Assembly: GCA_030141605.1 (NCBI GenBank)
Contig: JAQGDQ010000339.1
Coordinates: 192,087 to 256,086, forward strand
Source of the DNA: Tubiluchus corallicola
Taxonomy: Eukaryota; Animalia; Priapulida
Length of the DNA: 64,000 bases
Reading direction: 5' to 3'
Under the pieces are notes generated by a model. The model saw only the letters and a list, made by a program, of their open reading frames with translations, did not search any database and was not told where the DNA came from. How positions within the stretch are numbered: the first letter of the stretch is position 1; every line of letters begins with the position of its first letter. The position numbers were made by a program, and so were the translations under genes. Positions 32,168 to 64,000 of the stretch are shown here, piece after piece.

Positions 32168-35100
32168 ATGGCCGACGAAGAAAAACGTGTTCACAAACAG
32201 CACCGGGAGCGGCACTCCGGCGCGAAAGCTGCAAAGAAGAAATCACGGAAACCGTCGGAACCGGAGGAAGATGCGCGACGCCGGAATCCGAAAGCTTTTT
32301 CGTTTCATTCGGCTGATAAACTTGCCAAAGCGTTTCACAGGTTAGTCATTTTAACGACCAATATTTCTTACAAACACAAACGTATTGCTTGTCCACTTAT
32401 TGTGTATAATCTACACTTCATAGTAGGGTAGCAGTACCACACAAGAGACTTGGTGCCATTTCTCTTTGAATGAAAACAGGTTGATTTTTTGTATCATACC
32501 CCATTTTGTATAGTAAATTGTACACATTTCAATCCCTATAATAGCCAAAGGTGATCCAGAGTGTTTGCGATAATTATATAATACATTAAGAACTTGATTA
32601 ACTACCGCCGAGTGCAGCAAGTGCTGATATCAGAACTGAAGATAGTTTTCAACAGTGTAAACATTCCACAAGCGTGTTACACGTGTTTGCAGAAGCAAAA
32701 TTGAAGTTACTGTACTGTGTACAACATCGAGTGTGATATACAAAAACTGGGCGAATTTTTAATTGAACAATTTAAATTTTATAGGTTGAATCTTGGTTTG
32801 ATATATTTTGTTTTAAGATCTGCACGCTTTCATTTATAACTGTTGCACATATCTCTTGTTTGCGTTTATTTAGCATTTTTACCGTGATTTTATTTATTTT
32901 GTATCAGATCTCAAGATATCAAGTCAAAGAAGCTGCACATTCCGGTTGTGGATCGAACACCGTTGGAGCCTCCACCGATAGTCGTGGCCGTAGTAGGGCC
33001 GCCAAAAGTGGGAAAGACGACTCTTGTCAGATGCTTGATTAAGAACTACACACGGCAGATACTGTCAGAGATTCGCGGACCAGTAACAATTGTCTCAGGT
33101 AAGTTATGGGACCTTGCAGTTTAATTTTAGAAATTTTTCAAAGAAATTACTGGTTAAGAAGACTGATGTTAGTCGTTCATAGGCTAAGTTTTAGCTAACG
33201 GGATTTAACATCACTGCTGTTTGTAGATGTGATTCAATTCTTGTCTTCTTGTTGCACCCAATTTTTTTTATTGATTTGACCACTTTGATAAACTTTTTAT
33301 CTTAAAGGGCAAAAAGGCCATTTTAAAGGTAATAATCTTAACAAGCTTTCTGTGCAAAGTTTTGTTACTTAGCATTTACTCTTGCTTGCTTAAAAGACTT
33401 GTGTAACTGGAAAAGTAAATTCTTAGAAATTTATAGTGTTCATGCCAACTGGTAAGTGTCATTAATTCATCTTCTAAATGTGACCGACAGGCTCACCAAA
33501 AACGTATTTTTAATCTTACGGACTAGATAGAGTAAATTCTAAGCTTTTGCTTAGCTTGCGAAGTGTGTGCTACAAATGCTGTGATTGATTTTTCAAACTT
33601 TACGCAATGTCATCTAAACTTATTTCTAATAACCCATCATCAAAATGGCGGCAATAGTGGTCATCACTGAGGTTTAAATGTTCAAGTTTTATACATCGTT
33701 GCTACTAATGCAAGCTCCGTGCACAATAAGGTAGGGTGTAGATGATACAAAGGTTCAAGATGAATTTTTTAGGTTTATGTGAGTAAAGGATTTTTTTGTG
33801 CTTTAATCAGTTACACTTGTAAGCAGTTACGTACAACATATCTATGGTTTTTACACAGATATATATTGTGTTTTATCTTGTGGCTATAATAAATGGAGCA
33901 TCTAGTCTTGACAGTTGCTTCTGTTTTCCTGGCAAACATGAAAATTGTGCAGTTATTTTGTGTGGTTTCAGATTTTTTTGCTGTGTATTCTTAATTAGTA
34001 TGTTAAATAGTGAATTAATTAACAGTGAATGTGATTGGCTGTCATACATTAGGCAGTAGACTTAAACATTTAAAATGGGGTGCAGTGGGTTGATGTCGGC
34101 CATCGGCCAATTTTGGTCATCAGATTAGGTCACTTGACCTACACTGCCTTTTTATAGAGAAAACAAAATATTTATATAGTATTTATATATATAATATTAG
34201 TATATGTGTGCTTGCATAGCAAAATCATCCATACGTCAGCAATTAAGCTTTTCTAGTTATTCACGTATCCTGAGTCTCCATTTCGTGAGAATCATTTTGG
34301 TTCCAAATTCATGGCTCTATGTTATTTCTAAGCTGAGATAATCCACATTGAAGTCGAGGTGCAGGCTAGACACTGAAAAACGTAATCTTGAGAAAATCAC
34401 TGTTAAAGTTAGCCATTGTTTTTGGTCGAGTTTTTCCAAAACACTTAGCAACCGTACGAAAGTGTAGTTGCTATGGACTTTACAAAAGCAAATTGAACTT
34501 ACGTTTAAATCCACTAGATGAATCTTCCTGACGAAGATCTGGTTTTGTCAACAGAAAAAACCCGAAGCAAAATGGCTGCTACTTTTTAGCATCATAACGT
34601 AGTTTTAACTATGCCGACTTATGGACAGTTTTTTTTCTTGCAAGCACAATTATATTCTATAAAAATGCTACAGTATATATAGTATAGTATATAGTAATCA
34701 TTGAAAAAATCTAAATGTAGCCGACATTACCTCAATATACCCAACCATAGTTTGGCATTACTAGTCAGTTAAAATTAAATCTTTTTTGCTTGTGGCGGTT
34801 TATTATAAGGGCCTGTTCACATTTGTAGGTAAGAAGAGGCGCATCACATTTATGGAATGCAACAACGACATCAACTGTATGATCGACATCGCTAAAGTGG
34901 CTGATCTCGTTCTGCTCTTGGTTGATGCCAGCTTCGGCTTCGAGATGGAAACATTTGAATTCCTCAACATTTGTCAGGTAGTCGTGTCATTGTAGTTGTA
35001 GCGGTAATGTAGTATAATGATTACGTGCACAAGTAGTTTTCTTTTATATAAGGGAGAAAAATGTTTGCATTTTTGGAAAAGAGTGAAAAAGTCAACCGAT

Positions 35101-63457: not shown

Positions 63458-64000
63458 AGACACAAATTGCATCAAATTGTATCACGGTTCTAATTAAATA
63501 CTTTATTCATGATTTTAATCAGACACTCACACGTTATGCATAGATCGTCAATAGGGGTCAGCATCGAACGTTCAAATTCGATTCGGACCTAAAACTATGG
63601 ATTCGAATAATTCAGCACTTCAATCACATTCGTTCTTTATCATTGACACAAATTATTAGTGGTTTACTGCAGAACAAAATCGAGTAATATGCATGATCTT
63701 TTGTAAGACTAATTTTTACTGGTGGTTCGAAAACTTGTTCGAGATTCTTTCAATCTCAGTTCGAATTCAATTAGAATTGGAAATATTGAAATTTGGTTCG
63801 ATTCGAATTCGAAACTCACAAATTCGATTTTATTCGAATTCGCTTTCTGGTAGAGAATGCTCTCACCCCTAATCGTCAATATAATACTAAATAGTAAAAT
63901 AGAACGAATGCTGTTCGAGGAATGTGCTTTTTCCTTTGAACGTAACAATAAGCCTCCAAAATTGAAATGGATAAAATCTACAGCTATAAGCATAACCTAA
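63458..64000 (-). repeat. Inverted duplicate of the unique part of BMS1 intron 14 (48252-48777), including the family C MITE and its TSDs; runs to the window edge
   Basis: Near-identical reverse complement; differs by an 18-bp indel (ctgtagattttatccatt) and a few substitutions. Confidence 0.95.

What the first reader, a model, noticed from the sequence alone, without database searches (positions are those of the whole stretch)
32168..64000. BMS1 is split across opposite strands: exons 1-14 on +, exons 15-19 on -
Seen: exon 14 ends ...IGYIQ|gt (48173, phase 0, +). The next BMS1 residues (ag|VRVKKHRW, phase 0) begin at 60733 on the - strand, and four more intact exons follow leftwards to 50825. 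None of the 19 exons has a stop or frameshift, and the two halves neither overlap nor leave a gap in the protein. Known: BMS1 is an essential, normally single-copy SSU-processome GTPase. Drosophila mod(mdg4) is the precedent for joining exons from opposite strands by trans-splicing. Inference, most to least likely: (a) assembly chimera or haplotype mis-join; (b) real inverted segmental duplication with a second 5' half beyond 64000; (c) a functional discontinuous gene using trans-splicing or DNA inversion. Option (c) would be a new system, but the sequence alone cannot establish it.
Basis: partly seen in the sequence, partly recalled or inferred. Interest (0 to 1): 0.85.

Follow-up and report, generated by a model that had tools for sequence, protein, structure and literature searches.

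The report
Assembly fold-back splits the BMS1 gene
The essential ribosome-assembly gene BMS1 lies half on one DNA strand and half on the other in this window, but public sequence data carry both break points onward in ordinary gene order, so the split is likely an assembly error that joined the animal's two chromosome copies back to back, not a case of trans-splicing.

Summary
The strand switch is in the window: exons 1-14 on +, exons 15-19 on -, 1,124 open codons, all GT-AG. Two points missing from the finding change its meaning. Intron 14 is present twice, inverted (48269-50740 vs 63965-61474, 96.9%), and the - copy runs to the window edge 78 bp short of the exon-14 donor. The gene's last ~75 codons are absent, and the junction cuts intron 19. 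In public contigs, exon 19 runs on past the junction into DNA unlike the window in 3 of 4 runs from 2 samples, with a 7-bp overlap at the junction. Exon 14 is joined to the - arm's intron allele in one run and to the + arm's allele in another run of the same sample, at single-copy depth. Exon 15 therefore has an exon 14 in cis, and the arms look like two alleles. Best reading: a fold-back chimera joining two haplotypes (0.85). A real private inverted duplication is not excluded (0.12). Trans-splicing is unnecessary (0.015). No raw long reads or RNA were available.

The parts
32168..48173 (+). BMS1 exons 1-14: 32168-32340, 32908-33098, 34829-34977, 35304-35423, 36797-36939, 38400-38521, 39382-39578, 40689-40825, 42156-42387, 43479-43830, 44651-44814, 45624-45831, 46419-46567, 47985-48173
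   Evidence: tblastn with full-length homologs; splice-site-snapped model with open frame. Exons 8 and 9 lie in the poorly conserved middle and rest on splice sites and frame only.
48174..50737 (+). Left arm: 5' part of intron 14 (allele A), unique part to 48777 then a 52-bp satellite, cut off at the junction
   Evidence: allele A seen joined to exon 14 in runs X1 and X3
48778..50737 (+). 52-bp satellite of intron 14, left copy (about 37 units, with one garbled, shortened unit near 49890-49904)
50731..50737 (.). Junction: 7-bp microhomology shared by a satellite variant unit and intron 19 read backwards
   Evidence: satellite match ends at 50737; exon-19 contigs of X1, X2 and X3 match from 50731 and then diverge
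50738..50824 (-). First 87 bp of intron 19 (94 with the overlap), truncated; the rest of the intron and the final exon(s) are not in the window
   Evidence: continuation unlike the window
50825..60733 (-). BMS1 exons 15-19: 60733-60553, 53995-53814, 53461-53279, 52343-52203, 50983-50825
60734..64000 (-). Right arm: intron 14 (allele B) in its natural place before exon 15, with the full satellite (61038-63457, 47 units), running off the window 78 bp before the exon-14 donor
   Evidence: allele B (18-bp insertion) joined to exon 14 in run X2

Best explanation
The window is likely an assembly fold-back of an ordinary, collinear BMS1 gene: one haplotype is read forward to the satellite in intron 14, and a likely chimeric joint with a 7-bp overlap jumps about 10.7 kb ahead into intron 19 and reads back along the gene. 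Shown: the topology A B | reverse-complement(B C) with the last exon lost, the duplicated intron 14, the overlap, exon 14 linked to both intron alleles, and intron 19 continuing into other DNA in public contigs. Inferred: the true order is exons 1-14, intron 14, exons 15-19, intron 19, final exon(s), spliced in cis. The joint probably comes from a template-switch (inverted) chimeric molecule made in library preparation, for example by strand-displacement amplification. The assembler probably finished the return arm with reads of the second haplotype, which is why the arms differ like alleles. That the source DNA was amplified was not tested.
For: Inverted copy of intron 14 reaching the window edge 78 bp short of the exon-14 donor. 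The unique parts of the arms differ by 4 substitutions, a 1-bp indel and an 18-bp indel in 526 bp, similar to the 8 differences in 819 bp between the window and one X1 contig elsewhere in the gene. X2 holds a 206-nt contig covering 48090-48268 (84 bp of exon 14 plus the donor) whose 27-nt loose end is the - arm allele, found in the window only on - at 63983. X1, from the same sample, holds the + arm allele. The X1 exon-14 contig has depth 148 against 172, 145, 180 and 178 for the four long contigs on the exon 16-19 half, ratio 0.88; for X2 the ratio is 0.68; there is no doubling. Exon-19 contigs run unbroken past 50731 for 514 (X1), 1,603 (X2) and 728 (X3) letters unlike the window. A 7-nt overlap has a chance probability of roughly 1e-4 to 4e-4, and 7 nt is the modal overlap of inverted MDA chimeras (PMC9984789, passages read). 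MDA chimeras cause thousands of long-read misassemblies and false duplications (bioRxiv 10.64898/2026.06.11.730069, passages read). The window arrangement drops a C-terminal exon that 85 of 85 full-length homologs carry.
Against: Only Logan contigs were served, not raw reads. Contigs drop rare variants, the tool warns that depth is no copy number, and tables 7 and 8 were cut (990 and 22,856 rows not shown), so a short junction-bridging contig cannot be excluded from the listing. X1, X2 and X4 are one sample and may or may not be the window's individual; if not, they say nothing about a private rearrangement. X4 had no listed contig reaching exon 19, and X3 depth is too uneven to use (5-312). 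The letters of the continuation were not displayed, so exon 20 was not seen. The 10.7-kb distance is above the usual <10 kb, and the review calls MDA chimeras intramolecular, whereas the arms differ throughout the satellite (9 of 37 units identical in register, longest exact suffix 40 nt). A haplotype switch by the assembler must therefore be assumed. [quoted passage not shown] Microhomology also marks real replication-based rearrangements (general knowledge).
Confidence: 0.85

Rival explanations
1. The sequenced individual really carries an inverted duplication made by microhomology-mediated template switching in vivo (for example DUP-TRP/INV-DUP type, germline-heterozygous or somatic). The + copy is then a truncated duplicate and an intact collinear BMS1 elsewhere supplies the mRNA.
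For: The 7-bp microhomology fits replication-based rearrangement. The junction is contiguous sequence with no N. The arms have diverged by about 1% plus indels, which an older duplicate could also show. The X2 contig linking exon 14 to the - arm allele fits a second 5' half as well as a second allele.
Against: There is no excess depth on exon 14 in X1 (ratio 0.88, where 1.3-2 is expected) or X2 (0.68). The exon-19 contigs are unbroken at the junction in 3 of 4 runs from 2 samples, whereas a common junction allele would branch the graph there. All 14 exons of the supposed spare copy are intact.
Confidence: 0.12
2. BMS1 is a true discontinuous gene: a + strand transcript of exons 1-14 is trans-spliced to a - strand transcript of exons 15-19, as in Drosophila mod(mdg4), possibly helped by pairing of the inverted intron arms.
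For: Phases and Pfam positions match exactly across exon 14/15, all exons are intact, and the inverted arms could pair as RNA.
Against: The same phase match is expected of any ordinary gene. Exon 15 is preceded by an ordinary intron 14, not an outron with its own promoter, and that intron allele is joined to exon 14 in a public contig. The - half lacks the last ~75 codons. Intron 19 continues elsewhere in 3 of 4 runs.
Confidence: 0.015
3. The exon 15-19 block is a DNA segment that flips between the inverted satellite arms and so switches BMS1 on and off.
For: The block is flanked by inverted arms of 2.5 kb at 96.9% identity.
Against: A flip through the arms would give exons 1-19 in line but still cut 87 bp into intron 19, without the final exon. 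The contigs show intron 19 continuing into non-satellite DNA. The ORF survey and tblastn were not a search for a recombinase, and none was noticed.
Confidence: 0.01

Closest known systems
Inverted (fold-back) chimeras of multiple displacement amplification and the misassemblies they cause (PMC9984789, passages read; bioRxiv 10.64898/2026.06.11.730069, passages read)
   Same: Two segments of one locus are joined on opposite strands through a short overlap (7 nt here; 7 nt is the reported mode), the sequence beyond the far break is lost and the near part is falsely duplicated.
   Different: The distance of 10.7 kb is above the usual <10 kb. The arms carry different alleles, which needs a haplotype switch after the joint. 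Amplification of the source DNA is not shown.
BMS1 (small-subunit processome GTPase; Pfam PF04950 RIBIOP_C, PF08142, PF22298 in homologs)
   Same: The model aligns over residues 17-1124 at 55% to a frog BMS1 and over 843-963 at 86% to a Priapulus caudatus fragment; RIBIOP_C is met.
   Different: As assembled here the gene is inverted after exon 14 and lacks its last ~75 codons.
Drosophila mod(mdg4) trans-splicing (PMC12692577, abstract and passages read; others seen as search listing only)
   Same: Superficially, 5' and 3' exons of one protein lie on opposite strands.
   Different: mod(mdg4) joins common exons to alternative terminal 3' exons made from independent promoters. Here the 3' block is five constitutive internal exons behind an ordinary intron that is tied to exon 14 in cis, and the terminal exon is missing.

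Membership tests
BMS1 | Orthologous sequence over the N-terminal GTPase region and the RIBIOP_C domain | tested here: met
BMS1 | Complete C-terminus (about 75 residues after the exon-19 end) | tested here: not met
   absent from the window, present in 85 of 85 full-length homologs
Inverted template-switch chimera / fold-back misassembly | Two parts of one locus joined on opposite strands, with duplication of the near part and loss of the far part | tested here: met
Inverted template-switch chimera / fold-back misassembly | Short overlap (5-8 nt typical) at the joint | tested here: met
   7 nt at 50731-50737; typical range from PMC9984789
Inverted template-switch chimera / fold-back misassembly | Normal continuation, not the joint, is found in independent DNA data | tested here: met
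   3 of 4 runs (2 samples) continue into other DNA; contigs only, listing cut
Inverted template-switch chimera / fold-back misassembly | No copy-number gain of the duplicated part | tested here: inconclusive
   ratios 0.88 (X1) and 0.68 (X2) point to one copy, but contig depth is a rough measure and X3 is too uneven
Inverted template-switch chimera / fold-back misassembly | Joint supported by one or very few molecules among the assembly's own raw reads; amplified library | not testable with these tools
   no raw reads served
mod(mdg4)-type trans-spliced gene | 3' exons have no 5' exons in cis | tested here: not met
   intron 14 precedes exon 15 on - and its allele is joined to exon 14 in X2
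mod(mdg4)-type trans-spliced gene | Acceptor unit is complete to the stop codon | tested here: not met
mod(mdg4)-type trans-spliced gene | Independent promoter/outron for the 3' exons, and mRNA joining separate transcripts | not testable with these tools
   no RNA holder listed

The most novel reading that the evidence does not exclude
An essential single-copy ribosome-biogenesis gene is really broken across opposite strands in this animal and is reassembled by trans-splicing guided by a 2.5-kb inverted intron duplication, with the last exon supplied from elsewhere.
Probability: 0.015. Interest if true: 0.9.

Novelty: not a real feature. Interest (0 to 1): 0.05.

Why it matters
As biology it likely does not matter: BMS1 in this animal appears to be an ordinary collinear gene. 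In practice it flags a probable fold-back misjoin in this assembly, one that truncates a conserved gene and falsely duplicates its 5' part. Other strand-switch or inverted-duplication findings from this genome should be checked against reads before being believed. If the trans-splicing reading were true it would extend obligatory trans-splicing of coding exons to a core housekeeping gene outside insects, but the evidence runs against it.

Tried and rejected
No whole genome is held for this window, so the sequence beyond 64000 and the alternate haplotype could not be searched. No RNA holder was listed, and the one run guessed to be RNA, X6, laid 0 records on exon 14; neither is evidence on expression. 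X4 gave no listed contig at exon 19 or the junction. The 2-kb satellite was never laid, so no single contig spanning exon 14 to exon 15 was tested. Looked for the missing last exon in all six frames of the window: none. Looked for a second copy of any exon in the window: none. Looked for a stretch where the two satellite arms are identical, which would mark one molecule folded back: none beyond 4 units or a 40-nt suffix. Rejected exon 19 as a natural last exon (strong donor, stop after 10 read-through codons, no poly(A) signal). Rejected a scaffold gap join (no N). Rejected a pure repeat-driven assembler join, since one side of the junction is unique intron 19 and the overlap is only 7 bp. Other inverted matches in the window are dispersed repeats of at most 471 bp at 69-89% identity among the 15 best shown. 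One literature search for BMS1 plus trans-splicing gave 6 papers, none about trans-spliced BMS1 by title or abstract start (listing only). Earlier scan notes: nothing near, one unrelated note under artefact words, none by words; 8 of the 17 notes on this genome were displayed.

Full report
Observation. A search with exon 16 returned BMS1 proteins, with a Priapulus caudatus fragment at the top. tblastn of four full-length homologs places the conserved exons of the 5' part on + between 32168 and 48176 and five exons on - between 60736 and about 50820. A model snapped to splice sites has 19 exons, all AG/GT, 3,372 nt and 1,124 codons with no stop. Exon 14 ends in phase 0 at 48173 and exon 15 begins in phase 0 at 60733 on -. 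Pfam RIBIOP_C positions 54-108 lie in exon 14 and 109-169 in exon 15. The strand switch is therefore really in the sequence.

Two additions to the finding. First, the gene is incomplete. The model ends at residue 1146 of 1221 of the zebrafish protein, and 85 of 85 homologs of 1150-1310 aa (chosen by length from 120) have at least 67 further residues, median 75. A profile of that tail finds nothing in the window (best E = 1), while a control profile finds exon 19 at E = 2e-11. Exon 19 ends in one of the stronger donors of the gene (10.6 bits; 0.3% of 3,707 GT sites score as high). Read-through stops after 10 codons and there is no poly(A) signal before the junction. The junction therefore cuts intron 19 after 87 bp. 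Second, intron 14 is present twice. 48269-50740 on + matches 63965-61474 on - at 96.9% over 2,494 bp. The match continues across an 18-bp indel to the window's last base, which corresponds to 48252, 78 bp short of the exon-14 donor. The - strand thus reads intron 14, exons 15-19 and the start of intron 19, in normal order. The window has the form A B | reverse complement of (B C), with the final part D lost. It has no N, so this is not a scaffold gap.

The arms look like alleles. Their unique 526 bp differ by 4 substitutions, a 1-bp indel and an 18-bp indel. Their 52-bp satellites share 9 of 37 units in register, and the left array stops about 8 units before the end of the 47-unit right array.

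Public DNA. No genome is held. Four runs hold the exon 16-19 stretch, all as Logan contigs: X1, X2 and X4 from one sample and X3 from another sample and study. None is on record as RNA, and any of them may be the source of the window. Laid on 50686-54500, the contig carrying exon 19 matches down to 50731 and then continues unlike the window in 3 of 4 runs: 514 letters in X1 (1,434-nt contig, depth 172), 1,603 in X2 and 728 in X3. X4 has no listed contig there. A common junction allele would be expected to branch the graph at this point (inference); the contigs pass unbroken. The satellite side matches up to 50737, so seven bases belong to both sides, a microhomology with a chance probability of about 1e-4 to 4e-4. 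The loose-end and piece tables were cut, so I did not see the continuing letters and cannot exclude a short bridging contig.

Laid on 47790-48368, X1 and X3 each give one contig spanning exon 14 and the + arm allele of intron 14. X2 gives a 206-nt contig from 48090 (84 bp inside exon 14) to 48268, whose 27-nt loose end is the - arm allele, found in the window only on - at 63983. The intron copy that leads into exon 15 is therefore attached to an exon 14 in cis, whether as allele or as duplicate, and trans-splicing is not needed. X1 and X2 are one sample, so that sample holds both versions. Depth favours alleles: the X1 exon-14 contig has 148 against 172, 145, 180 and 178 on the 3' half (ratio 0.88), and X2 has 6.8 against a mean of 10 (0.68). 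A duplication would predict 1.3-2. The tool warns that contig depth is no copy number, and X3 is too uneven to use (5-312). X6, guessed to be RNA, laid nothing.

Mechanism. Shown: the fold-back topology, the lost terminal exon, the 7-bp overlap, both alleles on exon 14, and a different continuation of intron 19. Inferred: a displaced 3' end in the intron-14 satellite primed on the opposite strand in intron 19, 10.7 kb downstream. The chimeric molecule entered the assembly, and the path was completed with reads of the other haplotype. A review of MDA chimeras reports inverted chimeras as the commonest type, with a modal overlap of 7 nt and distances usually under 10 kb, formed within one molecule (PMC9984789, passages). 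A preprint reports thousands of misassemblies and inflated duplication in long-read assemblies of MDA DNA (10.64898/2026.06.11.730069, passages). Against a simple MDA origin: the distance here is slightly longer than usual, the arms are not one molecule, another study found almost no chimeric contigs in MDA-HiFi assemblies of small animals (PMC11660948, passages), and I have no evidence that the source library was amplified. The route is therefore uncertain; the verdict that the arrangement is not the species' normal gene is much firmer.

Rivals. A real microhomology-mediated inverted duplication private to the sequenced individual cannot be excluded without its raw reads (0.12); it would leave an intact collinear copy to make the mRNA. 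Trans-splicing as in mod(mdg4), where common exons join alternative 3' exons made from independent promoters, some on the opposite strand (PMC12692577, abstract and passages), fails two testable features: the 3' exons have 5' exons in cis, and the 3' unit lacks its end (0.015). A DNA flip between the arms would not restore the last exon (0.01). One search for BMS1 with trans-splicing listed 6 papers, none on this by title or abstract start.

Verdict. It is most likely a fold-back misjoin of two haplotypes of an ordinary BMS1 gene and not a real feature; interest 0.05.

Noticed in passing
window 58284-59252 (-): Single-exon rhodopsin-family GPCR (Pfam 7tm_1, E = 2.6e-23) nested in BMS1 intron 15 on the same strand as exons 15-19.
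   Followed up: partly
window 3695-6136 (-), possible first exon at 9463-9741: An 814-codon stop-free frame encoding a DEAD-box helicase with three KH domains (Pfam KH_1 x3, DEAD, Helicase_C). DDX43/DDX53-like by recall, where one KH domain is usual. The upstream ORF has no Pfam hit.
   Followed up: partly
window about 13900-26833 (-): Likely multi-exon RING-finger gene head-to-head with BMS1; RING domain at 13935-14111. Exon linkage not tested; the 391-codon ORF at 25661-26833 has no Pfam hit.
   Followed up: partly
window 48363-48683 (also in the right arm): Small element with short terminal inverted repeats and an 8-bp target-site duplication in intron 14; hAT-like MITE by recall.
   Followed up: no
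window 49890-49904: One satellite unit of the left arm is garbled and 22 bp shorter than its counterpart in the right arm, possibly a low-support consensus near the junction.
   Followed up: no
window 51582-52093 and 52734-53245: Very high-copy dispersed repeats inside BMS1 introns 18 and 17 (summed contig depth up to 1.2 million in X1).
   Followed up: no
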